NCBI GenBank assembly: GCA_963773185.1
Contig: CAVZAD010000015.1
Location: forward strand, 849-64,848
DNA: 64,000 bases
Reading direction: 5' to 3'
From: an uncultured Verrucomicrobiae bacterium
GTDB lineage: Bacteria; Verrucomicrobiota; Verrucomicrobiia; Chthoniobacterales; UBA10450
A program made the position numbers and the translations under genes. The notes below the pieces were generated by a model. That model was not told the origin of the DNA. It saw only the letters and a program-made list of their open reading frames with translations, and made no database searches. This document shows positions 935-19,700 of this stretch, piece by piece; position 1 is the stretch's first letter; each line of letters opens with the position of its first letter.

Positions 935-2933
935 TCAGTGCCCGTTTGGACTGGCGGGGAGCATTACGCTCACGGAAGTGCCCTGGGGATTCGAATCAAT
1001 ATCGACCCGTCCATTGTGATCGAAGATCGTTCGTTTCACGATGGGAAGCCCCAATCCCATGCCGCGTGCTTTGGTCGTGCAAAAGGGCGAGAACACTTTT
1101 TCCTTCAGGTCTGCTGAGATGCCCTTGCCGTTGTCCTTTACGGTCACGACCACGCCGCTGGCGTGGTCGCCTTCGCGGATTTGTTTGGCCGCCAGGGTGA
1201 TCCGCGGTTTGGTCCGGCCCGAGGTGGCTTCCGCGGCATTGGCCACAAGGTGGGCGAACGCTTCGGTTAGCGCGTTTTCATCACCCAACACTTTGGGGAG
1301 GTCGTTCGGCAGCGTCGTGTCGATCGAGACGCCGTTTTTCTTCACGCGCGTCCGAGCCAGCTCGATGGCTTTTCTGACTGACGCTCGCAGGTCGATCGGT
1401 TTCATCACCAGTTCGGAGGGGTGGGCGAAGTTGTTGATCTGGGTGATGATCTTGTCGAGCCGGTCGATTTCCTGCACCACGATTTCGTTGAAATCCTTTC
1501 GGAAATCTGCGTCGTCGAATCGTTCCGGCAGAAGCTGGGCAAAGGTCTTGATCGCCACGAGCGGGTTGCGGATTTCGTGCGACATGCTCGCGGCGAGATC
1601 GGTCCAGAAGGCGGCCCGATCCACCAGATCCTGTTTCTGGCGCAGGCTGTCTTCCGCAGTCAGATCGTGGACGACTGCGACCGCGCCAAGGGGCGTTCTT
1701 TTGTCCGTCAGCCGCCGGGTTTCCACGGAAAGCGATCGGCGCGTGATGGGATCGATCCATTGCTGCGCGGGGAGGCTTTCTTTCGAATCGAGTGTCTCGC
1801 GCAAGAAAGGCTGCAAGGCGGCTGCCGGCCGCTTCGACGGGTTGATTTAGAGCATCGGCTGCGGTGATGCCGAGAATCCGTTCTGCCGTGGGATTAAACC
1901 AACGAACCATCGCTTCTTCGTCTGTCGCGACTATCCCGGGCGGGATCGACGTGAGAAGAGTTTCCGCCAGGGTTTTCTGGAGCGTGACCTCTTCATACAG
2001 CAACGCATTCTCCAGAACCGTCGAGACGTTTTCCGCGAGAAGCATCAGCCCTTCCAGGTCGTTGTAATCGAAGCGCTGGCCCGTGACGCGGTGACCAAAG
2101 AAAAGCCAGCCGATGATATTCCCTCGCGCGTGTAGCGGCACGATGACCTCGGCCCCAAAGGTGTCGAGAGCCCGCCGCATCAGGGTGCGATGCCTCTGGT
2201 CGGAAGTTTGGGTCAGGGTGCTCCGGGAGATCAGATGCGCGTGCAATTCGAACCAGCGGACCAACGGGTCGCGCTCGCCATATTCGATCTCGGCAGTCTC
2301 CGGAAGACACCGCAGGCCGGCCCGAAGTCGATAACGGTCGCCTTGCCGGATTTTCGAGAAAATGCCGACGCGTCCGATCCCGGTGGCGTCGGCCACGCCC
2401 TTCGACAACGCTGGCGAGTAAGGCCTCGACGTCGTCGAACCGGCGAAAGACCCTTGGAAAACGCAGCAGTGGCATCGAGGACTCGCGCCGCTCGGCGATC
2501 GCGTGGATTTGCCGGGGCTCAGGGGTTGCGATCGAGACGGATTGTTCGCGCAGTTCGCGATTCTCTTGCAAGACCCGCAGATGCTCTAATCCGCGTGAAA
2601 TCAGGGCTTGTAAGCTGCGGCGATTCGTCTGCAGATCCTCCGCCGCGTAGATATCGGACTGCTCTGCCTCGCGCAAAGGCTCGGAACGTGGCGTCCCGAG
2701 AGCTACGATCAATACCTCTGGCCAACCCTCCTGGATTTGTTCGAGAAGATCGCGGGCCTCTTTTGCCCGCAGGTCCACAAGGAGGATCGCCGGACCACTC
2801 TGCTGGAGCACTGCGTCCAATCGATCTGCCACGCTGACGTGACGGACTTCGGCCAGCGCGCTGAGGAACGCCTTGATGCGCCGGGCGAGGTCCGCGTCCT
2901 GCGAATAGAGGATACAAAGGGGGAAGGGCTCAC
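935..2933 (-). CDS. Cytoplasmic sensor histidine kinase, receiver-like/GAF/PAS/HisKA/HATPase_c (frameshifted as assembled)
   Basis: ORFs 1993..2832, 1281..2408 and 935..1816 join head to tail. Motifs: receiver-like LCILYSQDADLARRIKAF..ILLVDL; GAF-like VIVPLHARGNIIGWLFFGHR; PAS IVATDEEAMVRWFNPTAERILG; H-box SHEIRNPL; ATPase DNGKGI..GMGLGLPIV. Frame changes fall near 2920 (G5 run 2919-2923), ~2400 and ~1815. A likely GTG start at complement 2931-2933 overlaps the upstream stop (GTGA). Confidence 0.8.
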
Positions 2934-5428
2934 GCGGCTGCGACCTCCTGTTTGAACCGGACTAATGGCAGCAAGATATGAAAGGCCGTGCCTTTTGAGA
3001 GTTCGCTCTCCACTTCGATCTGTCCCGCATGTTCCTGAATGATGCCATGCACGACGGACAGGCCCAGTCCCGTGCCATAGTCCTTGGTGGTGAAAAAGGG
3101 ATCGAAAACATGGGGGATGTCTTCGGTCCGGATGCCCTCCCCATTATCGCGAATCGTGATGCGCAAAATCTCGTGCAAACCTCCATTGGTCCCCGTTACG
3201 GTCGCGACCCATTCTTCCGCCGGACGAATCTCGGTCGAAACCACCATTTCGCCGCCGCGCTTCATCGCGTCCATGGCGTTAAGGAAGAAGTTGAGGAAAA
3301 CCTGTTCAAGCTGGTCGGCATCGGCGCGGATTGTATCCACATCCGCCTGCCAGGAACGAGTCAATTTGATCTCTTTCTGATAAAGACGATGTCCAACGAG
3401 TTGGAGCGATTTTTCGAGGACGGTGTGGACATGCATCGGCTTCAAGAGGGGCTTGGCCGGCCGGGCGAAGCGCAAGAGCTGGTTCACGAGAGAGTCGATC
3501 CGATCGATTTCATGCCCGATCAGGTTCGAGAAAGTTTCGCGGAAATCGGAGTCCTGGTAACGTTCCGGCAGAAGTTGCGCGAATGTCTTGATCGAGACGA
3601 GCGGGTTCTTGATTTCGTGGGCCATACCGGCGGAAAGGGTGCCGAGGCTCGCGAGCCGGTCGCTGCGGCGAATCTGGAGCTCGAGCCGTTTCAGGGCGGT
3701 GATATCGGTAAGAACCACCAGGACGCCCAGCATCTCGCCCTGTTGTCCGTGAAAGATCGAGCTGCTCGCGCGCACCACCACTCCGCCCTCGGCCGCGTCC
3801 AGAATGAGCTCGCGATTTTCCGGCCGCTCCTTCGGAGTGGAGCGTCTCTTGCATCAACTCTCGGATGGAGGCCGGCAAATCTTCTATCGAATGCTCGAGA
3901 AGATCCTTGGATTTCGAACCGGTGATTTGTTCCGCTTCGTTATTGAAGACCGTAATACGGCCATCGGCGCCCGCGGCAATCACTCCGGTCGTGAGATTCT
4001 GGAGAAGAATCTCGTTATAGATTTTCGCGTTTTGGACTTCGGTGAACAGTTGGGCATTATCGATCGCGATGGCGAGCTGGCCGCAGAGGACCCGGAGCGC
4101 ATTTTGCTCGACGCTGCCATAAATCCGTCCCGATAGCCGCGGCCCCAGCAGCATCACCCCGGCGAGGTGTTCCCGGGCAAAAATGCCCATGGCTACCGCG
4201 ATTCTTAGAGACGCCATTTCTTTTTCCACCGCTTCCAGCTCCGGAGTCTGCCGCATGCGGTGCAACTCATCGAGGACGAGGGTTTCCTGATGGGTTTCCA
4301 GTACCTTATGATCGCGTCGTTCCGATTCAACACCAACTCGGGAGCAGCCAGTTCGGGTTTTGGGAGCGGGTAATGTTGAGCGAAAGAGTTATGGTCGGGG
4401 AGCAGGATAAACACGCTGTCCGTAGCGACGGCGCCCGCGATGGTCTTCGCGAAACGCTTGAGCAAGTCCTGCAAGGTCGTGACGGATTTCAGGATGGCTG
4501 CCGCTTCGTTCATGGTCGAGCGAAAGTCGAGCCGCCGTGTCCCGAGGAAGAGTTTATCGGCCAGACTTTGCGAGATTCCCCGTGCGGGAGCCATCGCGAA
4601 CGCCACCACGACCGCGGCCACGACGTGGGCAATCGGTTGAGCGTCACCAAGACGGCCCAGCGCCGTTGAGACGAGCCACCAGACCAACCCGTAGAGAGCA
4701 AGAAGATAGGCGGTAAGAACGGCATAACCCGTCACGCGGCGGATGAAAAGCCCGACCTCCATGATCTTCCGAGTTGCGATGCCGTAGGCGATAATCAGGC
4801 TGAAAACTACGATCCTGAATGGCGCGACTCTCACCGCCATGTTCCGGTCTCCAAAAAATGGGGTAAAAGCAACCAGCGCGAACAACGTTATGCTCCCGGC
4901 GATCACGAATTGTAGTTCGACTCTCTGCACTCCACTTCCACGGCGAAGATCCCGCAGATACAGGCCCATTACTGCGATGGCGCCAATCGCAAAAAAACCG
5001 AGATACAGAGGAACCAAGGGTCCGTAGATGGCCTTGGGGATTCGTCCGGTTCGGAGTTCCGCATCGCGCAGGAACAAGGGCGTATAACAGATCGCGATTA
5101 CGACCAGACTGGCAATGAGCAAGGGCGCTGAGCGTCTTAGTATTTCGCGCCAACCGCTCTCCCGATAGAGAATAGCCAGCCTCAGGAGATTGAATCCGCT
5201 TATGATCAAAGGTCCGCAGGCCGACGCGTTTCGGATCCAGACCTCAGCGTCACTCGATCGCGTCGCGGTATAGGCGAAATGTAGTGAGAGGAGCCACGCG
5301 GATAAACTGATCGAAACGAACAAGAAACTTTGATTGGTGTAACTCCGGGAGTTCGCCCGGAAGACCGCGACACCCAGACTCAACTGCATGAAAAGCGCCA
5401 ACCATAAGGGCAGGCTTTGGGAATTCAT
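2930..5428 (-). CDS. Membrane sensor histidine kinase, multi-TM N-terminal domain/GAF/PAS/HisKA/HATPase_c (frameshifted as assembled)
   Basis: ORFs 4205..5428, 3510..4265 and 2930..3781 join. The N-terminus has several hydrophobic helices. Motifs: GAF-like REHLAGVMLLGPRLSGRIYG; PAS VIAAGADGRITVFNNEAEQITG; H-box AHEIKNPL; ATPase DNGEGI..GTGLGLSVV. Frame changes fall near ~4270 and ~3790. Confidence 0.8.
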
Positions 5429-5532: not shown

Positions 5533-6777
5533 TTAGCAATTGGACGGTCGCTCAACGACCAATGAACTGGTGCTGCCTCCCAGACCTCGCACGTTCATCA
5601 AAATGCAATCCAATCTGAGCTTCCGGGCGCGATGCGGCACGAAATCCAGATCACAGGCTGGATCCGCGATTTCATAATTCGCGGTGGGCGACACCATTTG
5701 GTCGCGGAAGCTTAAGCCGCATGCGGCGATCTGCATGGGCCCTCCAGCCGCGAGCGGATTCCCGGTGCAGCCCTTGATTGAGCTGATTGGAATCGAGTAC
5801 GCCCGTTTGCCGAATACCTCCTTGATATAATAAACTTCGGCAGCATCCAAGACAGGGTGGCCCGGCCCGTAGGCGGAAATATAATCGACGTCGTCCGTCG
5901 TGCGTGAGGCGTTTGCCAAGGCAAGTCTCATTGTTTCAAGTAGCCCCGACCCGGGAGAATCCGGGGCGTAATCTCGCTGTCTAGCGTAACCAGAAATCTC
6001 GAGATAGATCTTTGCTCCGCGAGCTTTGGCCCGCTCGAGATTTTCGAGAATGAACATCCCGGCGCCTTCTGAAATTACGCCTGAATCGCGTTCGAGATCA
6101 AAAGGTCGACTCGCTCTTTCTGGGTCGTCATTTCGGCAGGAACTCATGCCAGACGCGGTAAATGCGGCGAACGTATGTTTTGTGATAGGAGCATCCGCTC
6201 CACCCGCTATGGCCAATTCTGCCTCTCCTGATTGAATCAGGGTGGTCGCTAACGCTACCGCGTCCAAGCCCGACGGACATGCAGACGAGACAGTCGTCGC
6301 ATGCGCATGGGTGCCGATCCGATCTGCGATAAAATTTGCAGCGGCCTGCGGTGTCAAGGCGCCAACCGCCGTTGGAGATATTCCGCGAATTCCTCGATGG
6401 TCGAACTCACTAATGGAATGCTCAATGATATCCATTGCGCTCGTGCTCACCCCAACCACGACCGGTGTCGGACTGGGCAAGTCTGACTCGTTAATCTCCA
6501 ACCCTGCGTCTCGCACGGCCATGGTCATTGCGGCGTAGGCCAGTTGGGTATGCCGCGCCAGTCTACCAGGTTTGAGTTGAGGTTCGATGTAATCCAGCGG
6601 ATCAAAGTTTTTTAGTTCCCCGGCGATCCGGCTTCTCAGATCGCTTGCATCGAAAAAGGTAATCGGCCCGACGCCGCTGCGACCGGCCAGGAGCGATTCC
6701 CAAAAAGCTTCGAGCCCGATACCGTTGGGGGCCAGCACGCCCATGCCGGTCACCACAACTCGATTTCGCTTATTCAT
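5533..6777 (-). CDS. Beta-ketoacyl-ACP synthase I/II-fold (FabF-like) protein with atypical active site
   Basis: Intact 414-aa ORF. It is collinear with FabF blocks: VVVTGMGVLAPNG, SSACPSG (active-site Cys), DPERASRPFD, AKIYLEISGY, CDLDFVPH. At the two FabF His positions it reads SAYGPGH (NAHGTST in FabF) and IKGCTGNPL (KSMTGHLL in FabF). Confidence 0.8.
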   Translation of the reverse strand: MNKRNRVVVTGMGVLAPNGIGLEAFWESLLAGRSGVGPITFFDASDLRSRIAGELKNFDPLDYIEPQLKPGRLARHTQLAYAAMTMAVRDAGLEINESDLPSPTPVVVGVSTSAMDIIEHSISEFDHRGIRGISPTAVGALTPQAAANFIADRIGTHAHATTVSSACPSGLDAVALATTLIQSGEAELAIAGGADAPITKHTFAAFTASGMSSCRNDDPERASRPFDLERDSGVISEGAGMFILENLERAKARGAKIYLEISGYARQRDYAPDSPGSGLLETMRLALANASRTTDDVDYISAYGPGHPVLDAAEVYYIKEVFGKRAYSIPISSIKGCTGNPLAAGGPMQIAACGLSFRDQMVSPTANYEIADPACDLDFVPHRARKLRLDCILMNVRGLGGSTSSLVVERPSNC

Positions 6778-7039
6778 GGGCTAAGGGGGAGTAAGCAGAT
6801 TGAATACAACAGGTTGAAACAGACGCATTCTAGGCTTTACATTAATTGGAGTCATTATGTTTTTCGCCTCCCGGTGATAATTGTTATTCACCAAATTTCC
6901 GAGTTATTCACAAGATCGATCTTGTGTGTAGACGTAAAAAGTTCATCATGGCCCGACGGTGCCACCACCAGCAAATGCCTCACTTTCATAAATTAGAATG
7001 CGTCAGCGGCACGGCCTTAGCTTTACTTCCCCCATCATA
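6778..7039. promoter_or_regulatory. AT-rich divergent intergenic region between the KS-like gene (-) and the REC-HK/small-LanB genes (+)
   Basis: The base composition is visibly much lower in GC than the flanks. It lies between divergently oriented starts. No specific promoter boxes are confidently assigned. Confidence 0.4.
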
Positions 7040-8191
7040 ATGACGATCGCCACTGATCTCCCTCAGGTTCTCGTCATTGATGACGAAATGGGTCCGCGTG
7101 AGAGCTTGCGGATGCTTTTGAAGCCCAATTATCAGGTCTACACCGCCGAGAACGTCGAGGCCGGTCTGCGTATCTTGCGCGACAAGAGACCCGACGCCGT
7201 TATCAGCGATATTCGCATGCCGGGCACCAGCGGCATCGATGGCTTGCGCAAGATCCGCGAGATCGATCCGCACGTCGCGGTGATCATGCTCACTGGGTTC
7301 GGGGCGCTCGAAACCGCCAAGGAAGCGTTGCGGCTCGGGGCGAACGACTACATCAGCAAACCCTTTGATGCCCGCGAAATGCGCGAAGTGATCGGACGCA
7401 ACGTCGAACGAACCCGCCTCCAGCGGACCGGCGTCAACGCCGCGGCGGAAATCAAGGAATTGAACAATCGCCTCCTGAAGGAACTGGCGCAAAAGGAGCG
7501 GCTAGCCTCGTTAGGCCAGGCCTCCGCCGAATTTGTGCACGACCTCGGCAATCCGCTCACGATCGTTTGGGGATATGTCCAGCTTCTGGCCAAACGGCTC
7601 GAGCAATCGGACAAGGAAAATGGATCGACGAACGCAACCTCGGCCAAGGAGCTCAATATCATCGAGCAAAACGTGCGGCTCTGCCGGGAGTTGCTTACGA
7701 TGTGGCAGAGCTACGGGAGTGTCGAGGCCTCACCCCACAAGCCGATCTCGGTCACTCAGATTGTGCGCGAGGTGGTAAAGGGCATTAGCCCGATGGCTGT
7801 CCAGAGCGGCATCGAATTGCAATGCGACATTTGTGACGATCCCTGCACGCTCCTGGGTGATTCCGTCCAGGTCACGCGCGCGATCCAAAACGTGATTATC
7901 AATGCCCTGCAAGCCTCTGCGGAAAAGAAAGGCCCCGTTAGCGTGGTCTGTAACTGCAAGGACTTTTACGTCGACGTTTGCATTGAGGATACCGGCTATG
8001 GAATCACGCCGGCCCAACTCGCGAAGATTTTCGAACCCTATTTCACTACGAAACAAGGGAAGAGCGGCACCGGACTTGGCCTCTACATCACGAAGAAAGT
8101 GATCGAGGACCACAACGGCTCGATCAAAGTGGACAGCACGCCGGAGGTGGGGACTACGTTCACGATTCGCCTGCCGCTTTTGAATAACTAG
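7040..8191 (+). CDS. Hybrid response regulator-histidine kinase (N-terminal REC, then HisKA and HATPase_c)
   Basis: REC: VLVIDDEMGPRE..PDAVISDIRMPGTSGIDGL..VIMLTGFG..ANDYISKPF. H-box: FVHDLGNPLT. ATPase: EDTGYGI..GTGLGLYI. The ORF opens at 6998, but the ATG at 7040 (MTIATDLPQVLVIDD) fits a REC N-terminus better. Confidence 0.85.
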   Translation: MTIATDLPQVLVIDDEMGPRESLRMLLKPNYQVYTAENVEAGLRILRDKRPDAVISDIRMPGTSGIDGLRKIREIDPHVAVIMLTGFGALETAKEALRLGANDYISKPFDAREMREVIGRNVERTRLQRTGVNAAAEIKELNNRLLKELAQKERLASLGQASAEFVHDLGNPLTIVWGYVQLLAKRLEQSDKENGSTNATSAKELNIIEQNVRLCRELLTMWQSYGSVEASPHKPISVTQIVREVVKGISPMAVQSGIELQCDICDDPCTLLGDSVQVTRAIQNVIINALQASAEKKGPVSVVCNCKDFYVDVCIEDTGYGITPAQLAKIFEPYFTTKQGKSGTGLGLYITKKVIEDHNGSIKVDSTPEVGTTFTIRLPLLNN

Positions 8192-8320
8192 GCGGCATCG
8201 CCTTTTCCTTTTCGGGAGGGACTTGTTACCGCGGGTCCCCAACGGGCCCTCGAGTCGCCGGGATCACGACCGGCTACACTTTCGCTTGTCACTGCCAGCG
8301 GCATCCGTTCTGTTGCTTGA

Positions 8321-10762
8321 GTGTCTGGAAGTTACCGCGTTGCTCCGATTTTCCTGATTCGCATGGCTGGCGTGCCATTCGAGCCGCTGGACCGTCTCGC
8401 CACCACAGCGACAGCCGGGGCGGCCCGCGAAGTACTCGTTAGGCGCGGAGAATTTTCTCGAGCGAAATCCGAATTGGAAGGGTTACTCCGGAGGCGTGAT
8501 CACGGGATACCGGTGGAGGCATATCGTGTTTTGCGTCGAGCGGTTCGCGCGGGCAGCCTTCCGGACTTTGGCGAAAATGAGCCTCCCGGGGAGTCCGTCT
8601 TGTATGCCCGAGCCGTTACCGCGTTCGCTGCGGCAGAGGCTTGTCTCCACGAAGCGCTGGAACGTGAACTCGACCCGGCCCGTCTCGCGCTCCTGGAATC
8701 GACCCGGGAGGTTTTGGCGCCTTATCTCGTTTTTGGCGGGGTAGGCGTACGTGAAGTTCTGTTCGACCTAATGATGGCTGGTTCAAGACCGGGCTCTACC
8801 TTGCTGCCCCGAAAAAAGAAAGAGCGGGCGCGAGAGCGACATCTCCTTCTTTTCCTGCAACGCATTTGCGCGAAAAACGATACTTTAAGCGAATTTGGAC
8901 CGGGCGGCTGGGGAAGAATTATTGGCAACATGTCCGGCATCAGCATGTCGCCCCAAATTGGCATTGCCGGGCGGGAGACTTTTCTCGAGCGCTGGACTGC
9001 GCACGGAGTTGCGGCGGCCTTGAATGCCGACCCGGAGGTTCGCCTCGAGCTTTCGCCCCGCCAGCATCCCAATGGACGGGTCGACGGCAACCAGTTCGTT
9101 TTTGCAGGCACGGATCAAGTTGACACGCTTGACTCGAAGACCGTTGAAATTCTCCTTCGTTGTGACGGTGCGACGCCGGCGCACTCGTTAGGCGAAGCCG
9201 AAACGCTCGAGCGACTCGCGGCGCAAAACATGATTCTTTGGGAAGTCGAGGTGCCAGCTCTTGACCCTCACGCGTTCGACGTACTCGTTTCGGATATCTT
9301 GCGCTGGCGCGACAATCCCGTCCGAGCGCGCTGGCTGGAGGCACTGCAACCCATCGCCGCCCTGCCCACCGTGTTCGCCGAAGCGACGGAAACGTCTCGA
9401 CGGGCGGAGATCATGGATGAAGCGCGGGGCCTGTTACAGGATCTCGGCACCGCGCGCGAGACGTCTGACCGTTTCCTTTACTCGGCAGCTAATCCGATAG
9501 GCGAAGAATGTTTTCGGGAATGCCATTTCTCGATCGGAGAAAATTTGATTAACGAAGTTACGACCGAGGCCGCGCCTTGGATTGATCTCTGGCGCGACAA
9601 CTACGCCTTTGTCGCCAGCCGTGTCGCCGCGGGCTTGCGCGCTCTCCTCGAAAAAGCGCCGTTGCAAGACGGAGCGCTTCCTTTACCGGCATTTTTGCAG
9701 CATTGCGCCATGCTCAAGATGCCTCTGACGGGTCCGGCCATGGTCGGTCTGGCCCATATGGCTTTTCAGGAAGTGAAGGCCGCGTTTCGGGAGCGGATGC
9801 GGGACCGGCCGGAAGCCGATGAATGGGAGCTCACCGTGGATGATTGCCATTTTATTCGCCGAAATTTTCAGTACGACAAGTTCGACGAATTCACCTATCC
9901 GTCAGCCGATCTGCAGCTCGAGGCGAAGTCCGTCGAAGCAGTGGGGCGCGGCGAGTACCGGTGGATTCTGGCTGAGCTTCATCCGCCCGTCGCGCTCCTT
10001 CATCACGGCTTTTACTGGAGTTGTCCGGACAAGGGAGCGCTCGGGGAGGCCCTGACCCAGGCCACGCAGGGTTGTCCGAGTTTTCACTTTGGTTTCTTCG
10101 CAGCGGATTTCACCTCGACTACGGCCGTTCGGATGCTCGATGCCATTCCCGATCGGACGAACTTTGTTGCCCCTCAACGTGGCGATCCACGCTGGCGGAT
10201 TATTCCTCCGGCGGAGATCGAGGTCTATGTCGAAGACAAGACCGGCGATGTTTGTTTGCGAACCCGCGGAGCCCGCGAATACCTCGGCTCTTTTGCGCGT
10301 GCGTGGGTGATTCCGCTCGGCTTTCATCCGTTTCATTTTGGCCGGACGCCCCACATGCCGCGCCTGCGCTGCGGCCGGGTGATCGTGCAACGCCGGTCGT
10401 GGACGATTACGCAGGAAGAGCTGGGACAAGGCGATTTCACGGGTATTTCGCGCGACCTTGTGCTCGCCATCGAGCGACTGCGAGCGGCGAAGGACTGGCC
10501 GCGCTACATCTACATTCGCCCCAGCGAACAAGCCTTGCGGCGAAGCGGTGCGGAAGGGCGCGACAAAGATACCAAGCCGGTCTTCATCGATCTCGAAAGT
10601 TATCTCTTCCTCGAAATCTTCCACCGCTGGCTGACCAAAGCCGGCGAGCTGGAGGTCAGCGAAATGCTGCCGAGTCCGGACGATTTGCTTTGGCAGGAGG
10701 AAGACGGCCGTCGCAGCTTCGAGCTCCGCACCCAGATTGTTCCAAGAGAAAGTGACGAGTGA
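8321..10762 (+). CDS. Small LanB-like protein (lantibiotic dehydratase N-terminal/glutamylation domain only; PEARL-like candidate)
   Basis: Intact 813-aa ORF with a GTG start. The N-terminus YRVAPIFLIRMAGVPFEPLDRL and the C-terminal block PRLRCGRVIVQRRSWTI...WPRYIYIRP...KPVFIDLESYLFLEIF resemble LanB N-domain family features as I recall them. It is about 200 aa shorter than full-length class I dehydratases. This was not verified by HMM search. Confidence 0.6.
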   Translation: MSGSYRVAPIFLIRMAGVPFEPLDRLATTATAGAAREVLVRRGEFSRAKSELEGLLRRRDHGIPVEAYRVLRRAVRAGSLPDFGENEPPGESVLYARAVTAFAAAEACLHEALERELDPARLALLESTREVLAPYLVFGGVGVREVLFDLMMAGSRPGSTLLPRKKKERARERHLLLFLQRICAKNDTLSEFGPGGWGRIIGNMSGISMSPQIGIAGRETFLERWTAHGVAAALNADPEVRLELSPRQHPNGRVDGNQFVFAGTDQVDTLDSKTVEILLRCDGATPAHSLGEAETLERLAAQNMILWEVEVPALDPHAFDVLVSDILRWRDNPVRARWLEALQPIAALPTVFAEATETSRRAEIMDEARGLLQDLGTARETSDRFLYSAANPIGEECFRECHFSIGENLINEVTTEAAPWIDLWRDNYAFVASRVAAGLRALLEKAPLQDGALPLPAFLQHCAMLKMPLTGPAMVGLAHMAFQEVKAAFRERMRDRPEADEWELTVDDCHFIRRNFQYDKFDEFTYPSADLQLEAKSVEAVGRGEYRWILAELHPPVALLHHGFYWSCPDKGALGEALTQATQGCPSFHFGFFAADFTSTTAVRMLDAIPDRTNFVAPQRGDPRWRIIPPAEIEVYVEDKTGDVCLRTRGAREYLGSFARAWVIPLGFHPFHFGRTPHMPRLRCGRVIVQRRSWTITQEELGQGDFTGISRDLVLAIERLRAAKDWPRYIYIRPSEQALRRSGAEGRDKDTKPVFIDLESYLFLEIFHRWLTKAGELEVSEMLPSPDDLLWQEEDGRRSFELRTQIVPRESDE

Positions 10763-10887
10763 CATGTGACATGTGACGAGTTCAGAAACAACGCTCGGTG
10801 CGTGGTGTCCTCGACCGAGCGAGTTCGTCCATTGTCATTCTTTCGTGCTTTTTCTTTACATGGCACACGTCACACGTCACACGTCAC
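10752..10887. repeat. Inverted arrays of GTGAC(A/G)T heptads flanking the parA upstream region
   Basis: 10752-10780 reads GTGACGAGTGACATGTGACATGTGACGAG. 10864-10887 reads CACACGTCACACGTCACACGTCAC, whose reverse complement is GTGACGTGTGACGTGTGACGTGTG. The right array ends 9 nt before the parA ATG. Confidence 0.7.
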
Positions 10888-10896
10888 TTTCTTCCC

Positions 10897-11667
10897 ATGA
10901 AGATCATCGCAGTCGCAAACCAGAAAGGCGGCGTCGGTAAAACGACGACGGCGGTGAATCTCGGCTGCGCCCTGGCGGAGCAAGGTCTGCGCGTGCTGAT
11001 TATCGACCTCGATCCCCAGGGCAATGCGACCAGCTCGTTCGGTTTGCAGGAGTTGGAAGGCGAAAGCCTCTATGAGCCGCTGCTGGGCGCCGCCACGATC
11101 GCCGACAAGATCCTTCCCACGCGAGTAGAGCGCGTTTTCATCGTTCCCGCCGATCTCGATCTCGCCGGGGCCGAAGTCGAAATCGCGCGGCTCGACAACC
11201 ATCTCACCCGGCTCGCCGAGACCCTCGCTCCGCTCCGCTCCGACAACACTTTTGATTTCGTTCTGCTCGATTGCCCACCCTCGCTCGGCATCCTGATGAC
11301 GAACGCGCTCGCCGCCGCCGACGAGCTCCTCACGCCAATCCAATGCGAATTTTTCGCGCTCGAAGGCCTGGTGAAAATCGTCCGCATCATTGAGCAGGTG
11401 CGCAATTCCGGCGCGAACGATCGACTCGAGATCGGCGGCATCGTCATGACGATGTTCGACAGCCGGACGAACCTGAGCGCGCAGGTGGTCGCGGATGTCC
11501 GGGCCCACTTCGGCGAACGGGTTTACGAGACCGTCATCCCACGCACCGTTCGCCTCAGCGAAGCGCCCAGCTTCGGCAGATCGATCCTCGAACACGATCC
11601 GAACGGGACCGGTGCTCGCGCCTACCGCGCCCTCGCGAAAGAGTTCATCCAACGCCACTCCACCTAA
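10897..11667 (+). CDS. parA: ParA/Soj-family partition ATPase (no parB follows)
   Basis: MKIIAVANQKGGVGKTTTAVNL (deviant Walker A), LIIDLDPQGNAT, LLDCPPSLG, EFFALEGL. The start is taken at the ATG at 10897; the ORF track starts at an upstream alternative codon, 10798. Confidence 0.9.
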   Translation: MKIIAVANQKGGVGKTTTAVNLGCALAEQGLRVLIIDLDPQGNATSSFGLQELEGESLYEPLLGAATIADKILPTRVERVFIVPADLDLAGAEVEIARLDNHLTRLAETLAPLRSDNTFDFVLLDCPPSLGILMTNALAAADELLTPIQCEFFALEGLVKIVRIIEQVRNSGANDRLEIGGIVMTMFDSRTNLSAQVVADVRAHFGERVYETVIPRTVRLSEAPSFGRSILEHDPNGTGARAYRALAKEFIQRHST

Positions 11668-11687
11668 GTCTATTGGCCCCCCCCGCC

Positions 11688-12376
11688 ATGAAAGCGAAAT
11701 GCGTCAACGCGATCGCTCTGCTCGTCCTCAGCAGCGTTGCCCTGGCAACCCCGCCTGGATTCCAAGAGCTCTACGACCACTATTTTCCGAACGATGAATA
11801 TCAGAATGGAGAATATCGACGGTGGTTTGACACGACCCTTTTTGGCGCTCCGCCGAACCGCGGTGAAGACCGTCACTCAGTTTATTATGCGTTTCGTGGT
11901 AACGCAGAGCTTTCCACGCGTTCGCGCGCCATCCAGACCGCGATGGCGAAGGAGAATTTAAACTCGCTTGGATTAAGGAATGTCTTGTCCTGCTTTTGCG
12001 ACTCGGAGACGACCGCTTTTTCGGGCTCCTCGCTCGAGAAGATCAACAAACTCGCGAAGCCGTTGGCTCGATGATTGACTGCGAAGTCGACTGGACTAGG
12101 CATCAATTTCCAAGAACGCGGAAGCTTTATGCCTATCGTTACATCTCGCCGTCGCATCAAGCGTTCGAGAAGAAGCACGGTCACGCCCTGAGGAGCCTTA
12201 TCGCGCGAGTGGCAGCGGAGCCCCGTTTTTCCGGAGTGCGATTTCACAACGATCCCCAAGGACCGGCCCCGATATTGATTACCGCTCCAAAGTCCTTATC
12301 TCAGAGGGACCGCGCAGAACTGCATCACTTCATTCGTCGACACATCGGTGATGATGGCAATTTAGTTTTTGATTAA
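11688..12376 (+). CDS. Hypothetical exported protein (frameshifted as assembled)
   Basis: Signal-like N-terminus MKAKCVNAIALLVLSSVALA. ORFs 11673..12074 and 11996..12376 overlap in different frames and appear to be one gene with a shift near ~12000-12070. No family was recognised. Confidence 0.4.
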
Positions 12377-15972: not shown

Positions 15973-16758
15973 CTACGGAGGCCCGCCACGGTCGTAGACC
16001 TCAACGAGGCCGACACCGGTGCCGTTGTTCAATCCCGCCAGCAGTGCAGTATAGAGGCCAGGCGGTAGCGTCTTTGCTATCCCCGACTCGAGATCGCTTC
16101 CCAGCGCGAGGCCGGCCGCGGTCAACTCAGCGGCTTGAGCGGGATCATCCTGCCAATCGTTGTTGGCGGCGAGAAGCGCTCCATTACTGTCGCGCAGTTC
16201 CAGAGTTGGATTGGCCAGCGCACCAGCAACTCCCAAGGCCGTGAGGCTGGGGCCGATGCCACGGGCGATGATCCTGTCGTCACCGCTATGGCTGCCCAGG
16301 ATGAACCCGGCGATGACGATTTCGCTAGAGGTGCCGACAAACGCCCGGGTGCTGATATTGGCCAGCTTCGCCGGAACGGCCAGGCTCAGATCGTACAACT
16401 CAATTAATCCGACCCCCGATGTATTATTCTGGCCTCTCACGAGCGCCGTGTAGGCTCCGGGATTTAGGGTGGCGTCAATCGCCGATTCGAGATCGTTGCT
16501 CGGTGGGATGCCGGTGGCGATGATCGCTGCTTCCTGGACGGGGTCGTCTTTCCAATTGTTGTTGGTGATCGTGGTGAAGCCATCGGGTCCGTGCAGTTCG
16601 AGCACGGGATCCGCGAGCGCGTCGGGAACCCCGAGCTTGGTGAGAGATGGGCCGATGGCGCGAAGAAGCACATGCTTGGGAGCACTTCCCGTAATGATGA
16701 ATCCGCCGATGCCGACATTGTCACCGATCTGAACCCGCATTCGGGTCGAGAGGTTGAT
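15973..16758 (-). repeat. Copy 1 of the shared tandem C-terminal module (2 x ~130 aa, ends VEVYDRGGPP)
   Basis: INLSTRMRVQIGDNVGIGGFIITG..LADPVLELHG..NNNWKDDP..DLESAIDATLNPGAYTALVRG..LIELYDL, followed by LANISTRAFVG..LANPTLELRDSNG..NNDWQDDP..DLESGI..PPGLYTALLAG..LVEVYDRGGPP. It is about 85% identical at the nt level to 24409-25195 (16141-16320 compared by eye with 24576-24755). Confidence 0.85.
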
Positions 16759-19700
16759 GGCCTGTGCTGGAGTAGCGGAAGGTGTCACGGTCGGCGTTGG
16801 TGCTGGTGTGACGCCGGGAGTTGGAGTGGGTGCGATCGTGGCTGTCGCGGTCGCGGTGACTGTAGCTGTAGCTGTCGGACTAGGTGTAACACCCGGAGTC
16901 AGCGAAGGCGTCGGGCTGGGTGGAACGGTGGCAGTCGCGGTCGCAGTAGCCGTGGCGGTAGGAGTCGGACTCGGTGTAATCCCAGGGGTTAATGATGGCG
17001 TTGGACTGGGGGGCACGGTGGCTGTCGCAGTAGCCGTGGCTGTGGCTGTAGCGGTCGCCGTGGCGGTCGGACTCGGCGTGGGCGTAATACCTGGCGTTAT
17101 GCTTGGTGTGGGAGTTGGCGTTCCGCCTGGGCCTGAGGGCAACGGCCAGACATATGCGCCGCGACCGCGGGTCCAGACGGAAAGAGTGGTGAAGCCGCGA
17201 TCATACTGCATGTCCCAGATCATCGCGTGAGGCAGTCCGTTCTCGAAGCGCGACCAGGTGGGATTGCCGCGGTGATATCGTTCGTATAAGTACAGGCCCC
17301 AATCCGTGCCGGCGAAGACTTGTTGCGGGAATTTTGGGTTGGCAATGATCGAATCGACCGGGATGTCCGGGAGATTGCCGGTCTTGTTGTTCCAGGTGAA
17401 GGAGGCGCAGTCCGTCGTGCAGACCACCTGGAAAACGTGGCCGGGCGTGGTGGGAGTGTTGGCATTGAAGCCGCCCACCGCCGCGTAACCAATGGGCGCG
17501 GTCGTGGTTGTCGGATCGAAGACGACGTCGAGGATCGGGCGATTGGGCAGAACGGTATTACCGCCGGTCACGTTCACCCAGGTAGATTGGTTCGAGCCGG
17601 TTCCCAGGCCGCGGCCGATTTGCACGTTGCCGTCGTTGGTCCCCACGATCACGGTCGATTGCAGGGCCTGCGAAATGGCGAGTTGATTGATGAAGGAGCG
17701 ATTGCCGAGCGTTTGCTTGGTCAGGTTTGCCGGGCTGTTTACGTACCAGGTCACCGTGTTGGCGGCGCCCGTGATTGTTTCCCAAACTCTCACGGTGCCA
17801 GCAACCAGATGGCCGCAGCCGGTGGCCGGGCCCGCTGGTCCGCAATCGTTACCCGGCGTATTCGGATCGCCCTTGAAAATTTCGTAGGGCAGAATGAATG
17901 ACTGGGTATCGCCGGTCCAGCCGCCGGTGAGATCGCTCCAGCTCGCGCCGGAAGCGGTGCAATTGTTGATGCAGCGATTGAGGTGACCGCTGTTGTTTCC
18001 CTGCCAGAAGCGCGGGCTTGTTCCGGTGCCGACCGGGTCGATCCGGCCATAGAATCCATCGCCGCCTTTGCCCATCTGCCATTGCACAGGTCCCGTCGGA
18101 CTGCCGGAAAACGTGACCGACATGGCGCCGTTATCCTGGGCGCCACCATTGGCCTGCGGTGCCGCCGAAGTGGCGAAGTTACCGCTGATATCGCCGGAGT
18201 AGAATTCGATCGTGTTCAGGCCGGTGTCCATGTTGAACCACGTCGGATCGACCGTCAGGCTGGCGAGATTGGCGTTGGTGGTGCCGTGGACGCCGCCGTC
18301 GTTGCCTGCCAGCAGGATGCTGGAAGAACCGGGAACGAACGCCAGCGCGTGCTGATCCACGTGCACGATATTCCCGCCGCTGTAACCGCAAGAGGTATCG
18401 TTCCAGGTGGCGTTGCCGTTTTGCCAGAACCAGACATCGAAGGTGTTGAAGAAGACGCGGTCCGGATTATTCGGATCCACGGCGATGGCCTGGTCGTACC
18501 AATTCTGCGGGTAGTCGCCCGCGCCGCCGCTGCAGTTAAGGAGCGAGGCGCCGGGCGAGCCGGTGATCTGAGTCCAGGTGGCGCCGCCGTCGGTGGTGCG
18601 AAAGGCGCCGAGCTGGCAGCCGTTGGCGTTGCCGCAGCCGCTATTCGGATTGGGCGTGATGGACTGGACCTGCGCATACATGTAGTTCGAGTTGCTCGGC
18701 GCGACGGCGATGTCGACCCGGCCAAGCTGATTGCCGGTAGTCGCGTTGACGTAGGCCGTGCCGCTGGTCGCATTGGTTCCGGTCCACCCATTGGCGTTCG
18801 TGGAAATCGGAACGAAATCTGCCGGGCAACCGCTCGCCGGCATCGTTCCCTCGTAAATCCCGTTCGCGCCGTTCTGATTGAGATTGGATTGCACGGTGGT
18901 GGCAAAGCCGCGCACGCCGACTGCGGCAATGATGCGTGTGCTCGCGCCGGTATTGATGAGAGCGAGGCCGGTAATGTCCTGACGCATCGTGCTGAAACTG
19001 TTGGTGGTGCACGGCCCGGTCCAGTTAGTGCCGCCATCGTAGGAGAAGTAGAGGCCGGTCTTCGTGCCGGCCACGACATTGTTGCTGTTGCGCGGATCGA
19101 CGCGCACTTTGCCGACTGCCTGGTATTGCGGGAACTGGCCCGGGCGGCAGCGGCAAGGCTGGCCCAAAAACGCTGCCTCCCTGCAGCGTCCAGGTGGCGC
19201 CGGCGTCGGTCGATTTGAGAACGCCCTGGCTGCCCATGGAGAAAGAGCCGTAGTTCAGATCGCCGGTTCCAGCGTAGATCGTGTTGTGATTGTTCGGATC
19301 GATGGTGACGGTGTCGATGCTGATGGTGGCGAGCAGCGGATCGTCGGTGACCGCGGTCCACGACGTCGTGCTGCTGCAGCAGTTCGTGGTTTTCCAGACG
19401 CCGCCGCCGACCGTTGCCAGATAGGCGACGTTGGTCGTCGCCGGATCGATCGCGATGTCGTTCACCCGGCCCTCGGTCAATTGATAATTAAAACAGCCGG
19501 AGCAGCCGGTCATGCGCAGGGGTTGGGGGCCGAGCGCGGTGAAGCTGTTAGGGGAAAGCGTCACCGCCGGATTGTTCTGATTCGCGGGCAAGCCTGAGGG
19601 GATGCTGCGCGCGACGCGGGCGTCCTGGGCGGCGGCCTGTCGCACCCACTCCGGGTCGAAACGGCCCGTCGGGTAGGTCAACCGATTGTGCCAGTCGAGT

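What the first reader, a model, noticed from the sequence alone, without database searches (positions are those of the whole stretch)
5533..10762. Orphan small LanB (PEARL-like) enzyme clustered with an atypical ketosynthase and sensor kinases; no LanC, elimination domain or visible precursor
The 813-aa ORF at 8321..10762 carries what I recognise as the LanB N-terminal (tRNA-Glu-dependent glutamylation) architecture. It is about 200 aa too short to include a SpaB_C-type elimination domain. No LanC cyclase, separate elimination protein, YcaO, protease/exporter or Cys-rich short ORF is adjacent.

In characterised systems, small LanBs are either split dehydratases (thiopeptides) or peptide aminoacyl-tRNA ligases that extend a scaffold peptide (TglB, AmmB-type). 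Here the neighbours are different. A REC-HisKA hybrid lies directly upstream in the same orientation. A divergently transcribed FabF-fold enzyme lacking the decarboxylation histidines lies across an AT-rich 260-bp promoter region, and two large GAF-PAS kinases follow that gene.

The whole 5533-11667 block has no frameshifts, although it sits in a window where many genes are broken. This combination (KS-like + small LanB + dedicated signalling) does not match any RiPP or PEARL cluster layout I know, so it may be an undescribed peptide- or amino-acid-derived natural product or signalling system.
Basis: partly seen in the sequence, partly recalled or inferred. Interest (0 to 1): 0.75.

Follow-up and report, generated by a model that had tools for sequence, protein, structure and literature searches.

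The report
Order-wide conserved PEARL-type tRNA-dependent ligase locus
The 813-residue protein is not a lantibiotic dehydratase but a stand-alone PEARL-type enzyme, which probably joins an amino acid from a charged tRNA onto a carboxylic acid. Unusually, it sits in a fixed gene block with a histidine-less ketosynthase, three sensor kinases and a ParA ATPase in every related soil Verrucomicrobia (Chthoniobacterales) genome examined that had enough flanking DNA.

Summary
ORF 8321-10762 encodes an intact 813-aa protein. Its whole length has the LanB glutamylation fold (AF2 pLDDT 89; Foldseek TbtB TM 0.63-0.67). There is no elimination domain, LanC or nearby precursor gene.

The active site is PEARL-type, not dehydratase-type. 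D530, E552-x-H554 and E801-x-R803 are near-invariant down to 21% identity. They are replaced in control LanBs that carry elimination domains.

The neighbours are as described:
- a REC-histidine kinase upstream;
- a divergent FabF-like protein with Cys167 but Tyr303/Asn340 in place of both histidines (65/65 orthologues);
- two large kinases behind it, each frameshifted twice in this window.

A Soj-type ParA follows the ligase gene, usually with overlapping stop and start codons. The six-gene block is kept in essentially all of about 80 Chthoniobacterales species loci that have enough flank.

More distant clade members sit in NRPS, PKS, siderophore-like or multi-PEARL clusters, like the published SnaE. 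Six species carry a small-molecule O-methyltransferase between the ligase gene and parA.

[quoted passage not shown] The substrate and any link to the ketosynthase or ParA are only inferred. It is a new variant of a known kind, of moderate to high interest.

The parts
935..2935 (-). Orthologue of the 665-aa GAF/PAS-HisKA-HATPase sensor kinase, last gene of the KS operon. It is split over three reading frames in this window (two frameshifts).
   Evidence: tblastn of the L001 665-aa kinase gives pieces in frames -2, -3 and -1. Pfam GAF/PAS on the fragment. Present in 58 loci.
2930..5428 (-). Orthologue of the 843-aa kinase (weak 7TM N-terminus, PAS, HisKA, HATPase), with two frameshifts here. 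Its tail codons (...QEVAAA*) carry the AGGAGG ribosome-binding site and the GTGA overlap for the next kinase gene.
   Evidence: In L001 the KS, 843-aa and 665-aa genes overlap stop to start.
5533..6777 (-). FabF-fold ketosynthase-like protein (414 aa) with Cys167 kept, Tyr303 and Asn340 in place of the two catalytic histidines, and Lys335 kept. First gene of the KS-kinase-kinase operon.
   Evidence: Pfam ketoacyl-synt N and C domains. TIGR03150 fabF scores 356.7 bits, below its 493.75 cut-off. Alignment to FabF structures. C/Y/K/N in 65/65 orthologues.
6778..6997 (.). AT-rich divergent promoter region (220 bp, 42% GC). It contains a direct repeat, TTATTCAC at 6884-6891 and 6904-6911, which is a probable regulator binding site.
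   Evidence: GC content. TTATTCAC occurs in 65/69 orthologous intergenic regions, as a tandem pair about 20 bp apart in most loci checked. Promoter-like hexamers on both strands. No conserved small ORF.
6998..8191 (+). Receiver (REC) domain fused to a HisKA-HATPase histidine kinase (397 aa), directly upstream of the ligase gene.
   Evidence: Pfam Response_reg 24-132, HisKA 173-233, HATPase_c 287-394. 66-93% identical across 75 loci.
8321..10762 (+). PEARL-type (LanB glutamylation-fold) enzyme, 813 aa, with no elimination domain. Key residues: Arg14; aromatic residue 178 and Arg181 (tRNA CCA-end helix); Asp530, Glu552-x-His554 and Glu801-x-Arg803 (ATP site); Arg691 and Tyr731 (adenine pocket). 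Residues about 252-301 form a three-strand, three-helix element resembling a peptide-recognition (RRE) domain.
   Evidence: Residue roles are taken from PMC11117183 and PMC11962472.
10747..10892 (+). Structured spacer between the ligase gene and parA: 42-nt imperfect inverted-repeat arms built from GTGACA/GTGACG repeats.
   Evidence: Inverted repeat I1, 81% complementary. RNA fold -66.4 kcal/mol, z = -6.65. Hairpin spacers of similar size but different sequence occur in about 10 other loci, while most loci have a 0-6 bp gap.
10897..11667 (+). Soj/ParA-type P-loop ATPase (256 aa) with the KGGVGKT deviant Walker A motif. In most relatives it is translationally coupled to the ligase gene.
   Evidence: AAA_31 at 191 bits. 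247 bits to ParA 8ray and 227 bits to T. thermophilus Soj 1wcv. Median gap to the ligase gene is 3 bp over 80 loci.

Best explanation
Shown:
- ORF 8321-10762 encodes a stand-alone enzyme with the LanB glutamylation fold and no elimination domain.
- Its conserved residues match the published signature of peptide aminoacyl-tRNA ligases (PEARLs), not that of lanthipeptide or thiopeptide dehydratases.
- It is an order-wide orthologue in Chthoniobacterales. It lies in a fixed block: [kinase - kinase - Cys-only KS] <divergent promoter> [REC-kinase - PEARL-like - ParA].

Inferred from the family's established chemistry: the enzyme binds ATP in its ATP-grasp-like pocket and phosphorylates a carboxylate to an acyl-phosphate. 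It then condenses this with the alpha-amine of an aminoacyl-tRNA held by its CCA end, and releases the tRNA. The net result is one amino acid added through an amide bond.

Inferred from context (weakest step): the acceptor is a small carboxylate rather than a locally encoded scaffold peptide. The KS-like protein can still take an acyl group on Cys167 but cannot decarboxylate malonyl-ACP, so it may supply or process an acyl moiety. The co-encoded kinases regulate or sense the product. In six species a natural-product-type O-methyltransferase sits between the ligase gene and parA and may act on the product.
For: Fold:
- AF2 pLDDT 89.3.
- Foldseek TbtB E=1e-24, TM 0.63-0.67, then GodF, MibB, NisB and MadB.
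- Profile against PDB: TbtB E=3e-28.

Signature:
- 59 full-length representatives, down to 21% identity, almost all keep R14, R181, D530, E552, H554, R691, E801 and R803 (R181, D530, E552, R691, E801 and R803 in all 59).
- In the same alignment, LanBs with SpaB_C (P0313, P0317) and Streptomyces LanB-likes have Y/S/L at 530, no E-x-H, and V/C at 803, while keeping E801.
- This matches PMC11117183: TglB D542 and R803 are PEARL-specific, being Tyr and Leu in split LanBs.
- The D-to-E spacing of 22 residues equals TglB's D542 to E564.

Small-molecule acceptor:
- No conserved small ORF in the block or within about 10 kb. REC-kinase to ligase gaps are as short as 58 bp.
- Distant clade members lie in NRPS, PKS and type II FAS-like clusters (L086, L087, L088). 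One is fused to NRPS C-T domains (P0300).
- Another lies beside an aaRS paralogue and siderophore-type genes (L089).
- A PF00891 O-methyltransferase is inserted directly after the ligase gene in six species.
- Precedent: SnaE (PMC11212132).

Block integrity.
Against: - No bona fide PEARL sequence (TglB, BhaB, AmmB, SnaE) could be put in the alignment. The residue mapping rests on published residue numbers and descriptions, plus LanB controls.
- The block has no ACP, adenylation or condensation gene, and the 64-kb window has no ACP motif. A pathway that feeds the ligase is therefore not visible.
- A three-strand, three-helix RRE-like element is retained and conserved (PqqD hits in 2 of 24 relatives). 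This would fit a peptide substrate.
- KS divergence is uncorrelated with the other five genes (rho about 0-0.24).
- All conserved synteny lies within one order.
- The closest physical partner is a housekeeping-type ParA, which has no obvious role in small-molecule synthesis.
Confidence: 0.5

Rival explanations
1. It is a classical PEARL that extends the C-terminus of a ribosomal scaffold peptide encoded elsewhere in the genome, or the C-terminus of a cellular protein. This would be a tubulin-tyrosine-ligase- or RimK-like modification, possibly tied to ParA or to the kinases.
For: - An RRE-like three-strand, three-helix element spans aa 252-301, with a conserved D282-G283-x-T285 motif.
- Weak PqqD hits in 2 of 24 relatives.
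- Weak Foldseek match to the lasso-peptide RRE 6jx3_B.
- Relatives at 43-45% identity occur in tandem multi-PEARL arrays, like the amm and bha clusters (L085, L090).
- The ligase stop codon overlaps the parA start in most loci.
- One locus reads the two genes as a single frame (L046).
Against: - No conserved small ORF within about 10 kb in about 80 loci.
- The C-termini of the KS, ParA and REC-kinase proteins are variable or end at the domain boundary.
- The one conserved tail (kinase ...EVAAA) is explained by an embedded ribosome-binding site and start-codon overlap.
- A small-molecule O-methyltransferase is inserted after the ligase gene in six species.
- The L046 fusion is a single case in a long-read MAG.
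Confidence: 0.22
2. The enzyme class is right, but the neighbourhood means nothing mechanistically. The block is inherited gene order in a core-genome region of one order, and the ligase works with partners encoded elsewhere.
For: - All 80 listed loci are Chthoniobacterales or Verrucomicrobiota MAGs.
- Relatives outside the orthologue group have entirely different neighbours.
- ParA is a Soj-type housekeeping ATPase.
- KS identity does not co-vary with the other genes.
- Fructose-bisphosphate aldolase and other housekeeping genes flank the block.
Against: - Gene order downstream of parA is scrambled between species, while the six-gene block stays intact down to 55% ligase identity.
- Stop/start overlaps link KS-kinase-kinase and ligase-parA.
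- The divergent promoter keeps a shared TTATTCAC repeat in 65/69 loci.
- A response regulator and kinase pair also lies directly upstream of a distant clade member (L087).
Confidence: 0.2
3. It is a split class I lanthipeptide or thiopeptide dehydratase: a glutamyl-tRNA-dependent Ser/Thr glutamylase whose elimination partner and precursor lie elsewhere.
For: - The Pfam Lant_dehydr_N match.
- The best structural and sequence matches in the PDB are the split LanBs TbtB and GodF. No PEARL structure is in the PDB, so this ranking is biased.
Against: - Asp530 and Arg803 stand where dehydratases have Tyr and Leu or Val. The E552-x-H554 motif is present here and absent from control LanBs (PMC11117183).
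- No SpaB_C in cis, in the neighbouring genes, or by tblastn in the window or the fetched loci.
- No LanC, YcaO or precursor-like ORF.
Confidence: 0.03
4. The ligase-like and KS-like proteins are enzyme-derived sensors (pseudoenzymes). They would report aminoacyl-tRNA/ATP status and acyl-ACP status to the co-encoded kinases and ParA, without making a product.
For: - The KS-like protein has lost both catalytic histidines but is under strong constraint (100 positions at least 98% conserved).
- It is translationally coupled to two sensor kinases.
- The locus is rich in signalling genes and lacks carrier proteins.
Against: - Every catalytic residue expected for an active PEARL is near-invariant across the clade, including members inside clear biosynthetic clusters.
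- The KS-like protein keeps its nucleophilic Cys167 and Lys335.
- An O-methyltransferase insertion implies a chemical product.
Confidence: 0.05

Closest known systems
SnaE-type PEARL-like amide ligases in NRPS/PKS clusters (threopeptin pathway, Stackebrandtia nassauensis; PMC11212132)
   Same: - Annotated as a lantibiotic dehydratase, with only the PF04738-type domain.
- No elimination domain and no scaffold or precursor peptide gene.
- Proposed ATP- plus aminoacyl-tRNA-dependent amidation of a small carboxylate.
- Distant members of the window protein's clade lie in NRPS/PKS clusters, and one is fused to C-T domains.
   Different: - The window locus has no NRPS, PKS module, ACP or adenylation enzyme. 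It has only a lone histidine-less KS.
- It is a fixed, vertically inherited block across an order, not a sporadic biosynthetic cluster.
- It is coupled to parA and to three kinases.
- Sequence relatedness to SnaE itself was not tested.
Scaffold-peptide PEARLs (TglB, AmmB1-4, BhaB proteins; LanBC class)
   Same: - Size of about 800 aa, and the LanB glutamylation fold without an elimination domain.
- N-terminal Arg (R14 here, TglB R10).
- CCA-end helix aromatic-x2-Arg (F/Y178 and R181 here, BhaB Y205 and R208).
- ATP-site Asp, Glu-x-His and Glu-x-Arg (D530, E552-x-H554 and E801-x-R803 here; TglB D542, E564 and E801/R803).
   Different: - No adjacent scaffold peptide.
- A single copy rather than several paralogues.
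- No tailoring oxidases or proteases nearby.
- Core-genome context.
Split LanB glutamylation proteins TbtB (6ec7/6ec8) and GodF (9jhq)
   Same: - The best solved-structure matches (TM 0.62-0.67).
- Shared adenine-pocket Arg, aromatic residue and Glu (R691, Y731 and E801 here; TbtB R743, F783 and E851).
   Different: - The dehydratases lack the ATP-site Asp, His and Arg.
- They need a partner PF14028 elimination protein and a Ser/Thr-rich precursor. None of these is present here.
Non-elongating or non-decarboxylating ketosynthase homologues (KS0 domains of trans-AT PKSs, chain-length factors, C-O bond-forming NonJ/NonK) - named from general knowledge, not tested here
   Same: FabF/KS fold in which decarboxylative condensation residues are replaced. 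The nucleophilic Cys is kept, as in transacylating KS0 domains.
   Different: - It is a free-standing 414-aa protein with a strictly conserved Cys-Tyr-Asn set.
- It is co-translated with two sensor kinases.
- No partner KS or ACP is nearby. I found no described family with this triad.

Membership tests
LanB glutamylation-domain superfamily (Pfam PF04738) | Significant match to the Lant_dehydr_N profile | tested here: met
   46.4 bits against a cut-off of 28, but only aa 674-739 align. 21 of 24 relatives match, best E=3e-40.
LanB glutamylation-domain superfamily (Pfam PF04738) | Full-length fold shared with solved LanB and split-LanB structures | tested here: met
   AF2 pLDDT 89.3. Foldseek: TbtB TM 0.63-0.67; GodF 0.62; MibB, NisB and MadB 0.53-0.58, all prob 1.00.
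LanB glutamylation-domain superfamily (Pfam PF04738) | Adenine-pocket Arg, aromatic residue and Glu (TbtB R743, F783, E851) | tested here: met
   R691 and Y731 align to TbtB chain residues R746 and F786, which are UniProt R743 and F783. E801 is kept in all clade members and in the LanB controls.
Class I lanthipeptide dehydratase (full-length LanB) or split LanB | SpaB_C (PF14028) elimination domain in cis or as a neighbouring protein | tested here: not met
   No PF14028 hit. The protein ends at aa 813 inside the glutamylation fold. None found in neighbours or by tblastn (low sensitivity).
Class I lanthipeptide dehydratase (full-length LanB) or split LanB | Adjacent precursor peptide and cyclase (LanC) or azole/pyridine machinery | tested here: not met
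   The neighbours are KS-like, REC-kinase and ParA. No conserved small ORF.
Class I lanthipeptide dehydratase (full-length LanB) or split LanB | Non-PEARL residues (Tyr and Leu/Val) at the positions of TglB D542 and R803 | tested here: not met
   The window protein has D530 and R803. Control LanBs have Y/S/L and V/C at these positions.
PEARL (peptide aminoacyl-tRNA ligase, LanBC) | ATP-site residues Asp, Glu-x-His and Glu-x-Arg (TglB D542, E564-x-H566, E801-x-R803) | tested here: met
   D530, E552-L-H554 and E801-L-R803 are near-invariant in 59 representatives and absent from the LanB controls. Caveat: no characterised PEARL sequence was in the alignment; the mapping uses PMC11117183 and PMC11962472.
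PEARL (peptide aminoacyl-tRNA ligase, LanBC) | N-terminal Arg (TglB R10, BhaB R34) and the CCA-end helix aromatic-x2-Arg (BhaB Y205, R208) | tested here: met
   R14 and R181 are near-invariant to invariant. Position 178 is Phe here and Tyr in most orthologues.
PEARL (peptide aminoacyl-tRNA ligase, LanBC) | Cognate scaffold peptide gene in the cluster | tested here: not met
   This feature is also unmet by the published SnaE.
PEARL (peptide aminoacyl-tRNA ligase, LanBC) | ATP- and aminoacyl-tRNA-dependent amide bond formation | not testable with these tools
   Needs enzyme assays.
SnaE-like PEARLs of NRPS/PKS pathways | Co-localisation with an NRPS/PKS assembly line that supplies a free carboxylate | tested here: not met
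   The window has only a lone KS-like gene, with no ACP, adenylation or condensation genes. The feature is met in the distant clade members L086-L088 and P0300.
Beta-ketoacyl-ACP synthase II (FabF) | Cys-His-His catalytic triad and the NCBIfam equivalog score | tested here: not met
   Cys167, Tyr303 and Asn340 in 65/65 orthologues. TIGR03150 scores 356.7, below 493.75.
Chromosomal ParA/Soj | Deviant Walker A motif (KGGxGK[ST]) and close similarity to Soj structures | tested here: met
   KGGVGKT motif. 247 bits to 8ray and 227 bits to 1wcv.
Chromosomal ParA/Soj | Adjacent parB | tested here: not met
   No ParB box motif in the 64-kb window (a motif-only test). The genes after parA vary between species.

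The most novel reading that the evidence does not exclude
This is a PEARL recruited from secondary metabolism into core physiology. Together with the Cys-only ketosynthase it would make an amino-acid-conjugated, possibly lipid-like, molecule, or modify a cellular protein. That product would be sensed by the co-encoded 7TM and GAF/PAS kinases and coupled to the ParA chromosome-segregation ATPase. tRNA-dependent amide ligation would then act as a signalling or cell-cycle device conserved across a whole bacterial order.
Probability: 0.15. Interest if true: 0.85.

Novelty: new variant of a known kind. Interest (0 to 1): 0.58.

Why it matters
All PEARL-type enzymes characterised in the papers read here work in sporadic natural-product clusters, either on scaffold peptides or, in SnaE's case, on an NRPS product. 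Here the same catalytic signature is a vertically inherited, strongly conserved gene in at least about 80, and up to 262, species-representative genomes of an abundant soil lineage. It is locked to a signalling-rich block, to a unique Cys-Tyr-Asn ketosynthase and to parA.

If the product is found, it would extend tRNA-dependent amide ligation to conserved physiology or signalling. It would also give a function to a histidine-less ketosynthase family. Even on the ordinary reading, three practical points follow:
- The gene is not a lantibiotic dehydratase and should not be counted as a lanthipeptide cluster by genome miners.
- The public gene model that starts at Met15 removes a catalytic Arg.
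- The D...E-x-H...E-x-R residues separated this clade from the control dehydratases examined here.

Tried and rejected
1. Conserved C-terminal tail ...EVAAA* of the 843-aa kinase as a possible PEARL substrate or degron. Rejected: the codons encode AGGAGG plus the GTGA start overlap for the next gene.
2. A precursor gene in the KS/REC-kinase or REC-kinase/ligase spacers. The ORF clusters found there are only conserved DNA read in shifting frames, and some spacers are just 58 bp.
3. A precursor within about 10 kb. The only conserved small protein is a very basic one of about 55 aa, roughly 9.5 kb upstream in relatives, with a variable C-terminus. It is not scaffold-like.
4. NCBIfam gives no family for the ligase. 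phmmer of the single sequence against the PDB finds nothing; a family profile was needed.
5. Pfam PqqD on aa 250-320 alone gives no hit. The RRE assignment therefore stays inconclusive.
6. PADLOC defence models give nothing meaningful.
7. Obtaining TglB or BhaB enzyme sequences from paper supplements failed. Only the BhaA peptide was found.
8. Checking whether the kinase frameshifts lie at homopolymers, which would point to assembly error, was inconclusive. A sister long-read MAG (L002/L011) shows similar breakage.
9. The KS genes beside the distant PEARL-like gene in L086 are canonical Cys-His-His. The Cys-Tyr-Asn KS is therefore not a general partner of the clade.
10. Literature searches found no description of this locus or of a Cys-Tyr-Asn KS.
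11. The terminator scan of the block is below chance expectation.

Full report
**Observation.**
- KS-like, 5533-6777 (-).
- REC-HisKA-HATPase, 6998-8191 (+).
- The 813-aa ORF, 8321-10762 (+, GTG start).
- A ParA-type ORF ending at 11667, whose homology-supported start is the ATG at 10897.

Pfam gives Lant_dehydr_N for the 813-aa protein at 46.4 bits (cut-off 28), but only for residues 674-739, and it gives no SpaB_C. NCBIfam has no family for it, and single-sequence phmmer against the PDB finds nothing. The KS/REC-kinase spacer is 220 bp at 42% GC, against 59% for the window. The two kinases behind the KS gene are present, but each carries two frameshifts here. The four genes from 5533 to 11667 are intact.

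**What the 813-aa protein is.** Close relatives are abundant and strongly conserved. They are 67-87% identical, about 797 aa long, and are labelled Chthoniobacterales or Verrucomicrobiota where named. A 22-sequence alignment has 79% mean column identity. An exhaustive profile search finds 2,485 cluster representatives at E<=1e-3 and 480 at E<=1e-30. These include full-length proteins of about 800 aa down to about 21% identity.

A profile of diverse members matches the split LanB TbtB (6ec7) at E=3e-28, at both the N-terminal (10-257) and C-terminal (672-792) regions, and also matches GodF. An AlphaFold2 model is confident (pLDDT 89.3, pTM 0.88). Foldseek aligns the whole chain to TbtB (TM 0.63-0.67), GodF, MibB, NisB and MadB, all at probability 1.00. 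The chain ends inside this fold, so there is no room for an elimination domain.

**PEARL-type or dehydratase-type.** Published work separates the two classes:
- All LanB-fold enzymes share an adenine-pocket Arg, Phe and Glu (TbtB R743, F783, E851).
- PEARLs additionally conserve TglB Asp542 and Arg803, which are Tyr and Leu in split LanBs, and a Glu-x-His (PMC11117183).
- PEARLs also have an N-terminal Arg (TglB R10, BhaB R34) and a helix that contacts the tRNA CCA end (BhaB Y205, R208) (PMC11962472).

Across 59 full-length representatives, almost all keep the following residues (several are strictly invariant): R14, G17, R169, Q180, R181, K185, N186, F192-G-P, E223, E395, D530, E552, H554, R681, R691, W694, K752, D757, E781, E801 and R803.

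R691 and Y731 align to TbtB's Arg and Phe. As an internal control I aligned the clade with two LanBs that carry SpaB_C (P0313, P0317) and four Streptomyces LanB-likes. These controls have Y/S/L at position 530, no E-x-H, and V/C at 803, but they keep E801.

The window protein therefore carries the ATP-dependent, PEARL-type site. One caveat applies: no characterised PEARL sequence could be obtained for the alignment. The mapping rests on published residue descriptions, on the matching 22-residue Asp-to-Glu spacing, and on the controls. Because R14 precedes Met15, the 813-aa GTG start is preferable to the 799-aa public model.

**The neighbours.**
- *KS-like protein.* It aligns end to end with FabF structures. 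It keeps Cys167 and Lys335 but has Tyr303 and Asn340 in place of the two histidines. This holds in 65/65 orthologues, with 100 positions at least 98% conserved. It scores below the FabF equivalog cut-off.
- *ParA.* It is a Soj-type ATPase (247 bits to 8ray, 227 bits to T. thermophilus Soj). No ParB-box or ACP motif occurs in the 64-kb window.

**Synteny.** A scan of species-representative genomes found 262 stretches that encode a relative. The best 80 are all Chthoniobacterales or Verrucomicrobiota MAGs. In essentially every locus with enough flank the order is 665-aa kinase, 843-aa kinase, KS (all on the minus strand), then REC-kinase, ligase, ParA.
- The ligase-parA gap has a median of 3 bp (stop/start overlap).
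- The REC-kinase to ligase gap is mostly 58-170 bp.
- The divergent spacer is 180-370 bp.
- In L001 the KS and the two kinase genes also overlap stop to start.
- Gene order downstream of parA varies between species.
- The divergent promoter keeps a TTATTCAC repeat in 65/69 loci, as a tandem pair about 20 bp apart in most loci checked.
- Pairwise identities of the kinases, REC-kinase, ligase and ParA co-vary (rho 0.5-0.8). KS identity does not (rho about 0-0.24). I cannot explain this.

**Substrate clues.**
- No conserved small ORF lies in the spacers or within about 10 kb.
- The C-termini of the KS, REC-kinase and ParA proteins are not conserved as tails. The conserved ...EVAAA* kinase tail is explained by an embedded ribosome-binding site and start overlap.
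- Residues 252-301 form a three-strand, three-helix element like a peptide-recognition (RRE) domain. Support is weak: PqqD hits in 2 of 24 relatives, a non-significant lasso-RRE fold match, and no hit for the region alone.

Outside the orthologue group, clade members with the same catalytic signature sit in biosynthetic contexts:
- L086 (Acidobacteria): KS, KR, DH, KSIII, A-T, thioesterases and a condensation domain.
- L087: a response regulator and kinase directly upstream, then AMP-binding, ACP and PKS genes.
- L088: an NRPS plus a second LanB-like gene.
- P0300: a C-T-ligase fusion.
- L089: an aaRS paralogue, B3_4 domain, M20 peptidase, GNAT and Lys/Orn N-oxygenase.
- L090 and L085: tandem arrays of LanB-like paralogues.

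The KS genes next to the L086 ligase are canonical Cys-His-His.

In six Chthoniobacterales species a PF00891-type small-molecule O-methyltransferase is inserted between the ligase gene and parA. These observations, together with the SnaE precedent (PMC11212132), favour a small carboxylate acceptor over a local peptide.

**Mechanism.**
- *Shown:* fold, catalytic signature, absence of dehydratase partners, and block conservation.
- *Inferred from family chemistry:* ATP-dependent phosphorylation of a carboxylate, attack by the amine of an aminoacyl-tRNA, and release of the tRNA.
- *Inferred from context, with low confidence:* the acceptor is a small acid. The Cys-only KS may hold, deliver or process an acyl group without decarboxylative condensation. 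The kinases regulate or sense the product.

The roles of ParA, of the single in-frame ligase-ParA reading in L046, and of the structured spacer are unexplained.

**Comparison and novelty.** The enzyme is a new member of the PEARL / PEARL-like family. It is not a lantibiotic dehydratase: three defining features were tested and not met. The scaffold-free situation has a published precedent.

What I did not find described is a PEARL-type gene that is a fixed, order-wide core-genome block. This block is joined to a strictly conserved Cys-Tyr-Asn ketosynthase co-translated with two sensor kinases, to a REC-kinase, and to a Soj-type ParA. I rate it a new variant of a known kind, with interest about 0.58. 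The enzyme-class call is solid. The biology of the block is open and testable.

Noticed in passing
window 10747-10892: The ligase-parA spacer is a long imperfect hairpin: 42-nt arms built from GTGACA/GTGACG repeats, RNA fold -66.4 kcal/mol, z = -6.65. About 10 other loci have hairpin spacers of the same size and position but with different repeat sequences (for example TTCGAAATCCGAA... in L016, L020, L022, L027, L029 and L078). Most loci have no spacer at all.
   Followed up: partly
window 6884-6891 and 6904-6911: A direct repeat, TTATTCAC-N12-TTATTCACAAG, lies in the divergent KS/REC-kinase promoter. The TTATTCAC motif occurs in 65 of 69 orthologous spacers. It is a probable operator, but no DNA-binding regulator is encoded in the block.
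   Followed up: partly
window 935-5428: Both large sensor-kinase genes carry two frameshifts each, while the adjacent four genes are intact. A related long-read MAG (L002/L011) shows similar breakage, so assembly error is plausible but unproven. The junctions are not obvious homopolymers.
   Followed up: partly
window 5533-6777 versus loci L001-L083: KS-like protein identity to the window does not co-vary with that of the other five block genes (Spearman about 0-0.24, against 0.5-0.8 among the others). This suggests rate heterogeneity or allele exchange for the KS gene.
   Followed up: no
L046:10001-13186: The ligase-like and ParA reading frames are continuous with no stop codon (…RTFELRTLIVTSHMKIVAIANQKGGVGKT…), predicting a fusion protein. 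It is a single case in a long-read MAG, so it could be an indel artefact.
   Followed up: no
L050:12716-13861, L075, L068, L030, L034, L038: A PF00891/PF08100 small-molecule O-methyltransferase (83-100% identical among the six) is inserted directly after the ligase-like gene and before parA. It is absent from the window.
   Followed up: partly
L082, L024, L018, L069, L074 (ligase-parA junction): A palindromic, MITE-like element (GGGGAGCGCACGCGCC...GGCGCGTGCGCTCCCC) is inserted just after the first eight or so parA codons. The duplicated parA 5' end (ATGAAAATCGT...) is left upstream, and a restored start lies downstream.
   Followed up: no
L003:447-602 and 13 other loci, about 9.5 kb upstream of the ligase gene (outside the window): A conserved, very basic small protein of about 55 aa (MGQQHRVRVKRRRRSAYLDRKK...) lies next to a NYN/YacP gene. 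Its function is unknown.
   Followed up: no
window 8321-8362: The identical public protein (799 aa) starts at Met15 and omits the family-invariant Arg14, the equivalent of a catalytic Arg in PEARLs. The GTG at 8321 is the better start.
   Followed up: yes
window 11673-12376: Two overlapping ORFs (133 and 126 aa) in different frames follow parA. They have no homologue at that position in the other loci and could be another frameshifted gene.
   Followed up: no
window 15973-19167 (-): A 1064-aa ORF has long Thr/Pro/Ala linkers (TPTPSPTATATATATATATV...) and two repeated C-terminal modules. It is probably a secreted, BNR/sialidase-like glycoside hydrolase type protein.
   Followed up: no
L015:5469-10000: A 4.5-kb insertion between the REC-kinase and ligase genes encodes proteins of 595, 265 and 140 aa with no Pfam match.
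   Followed up: partly
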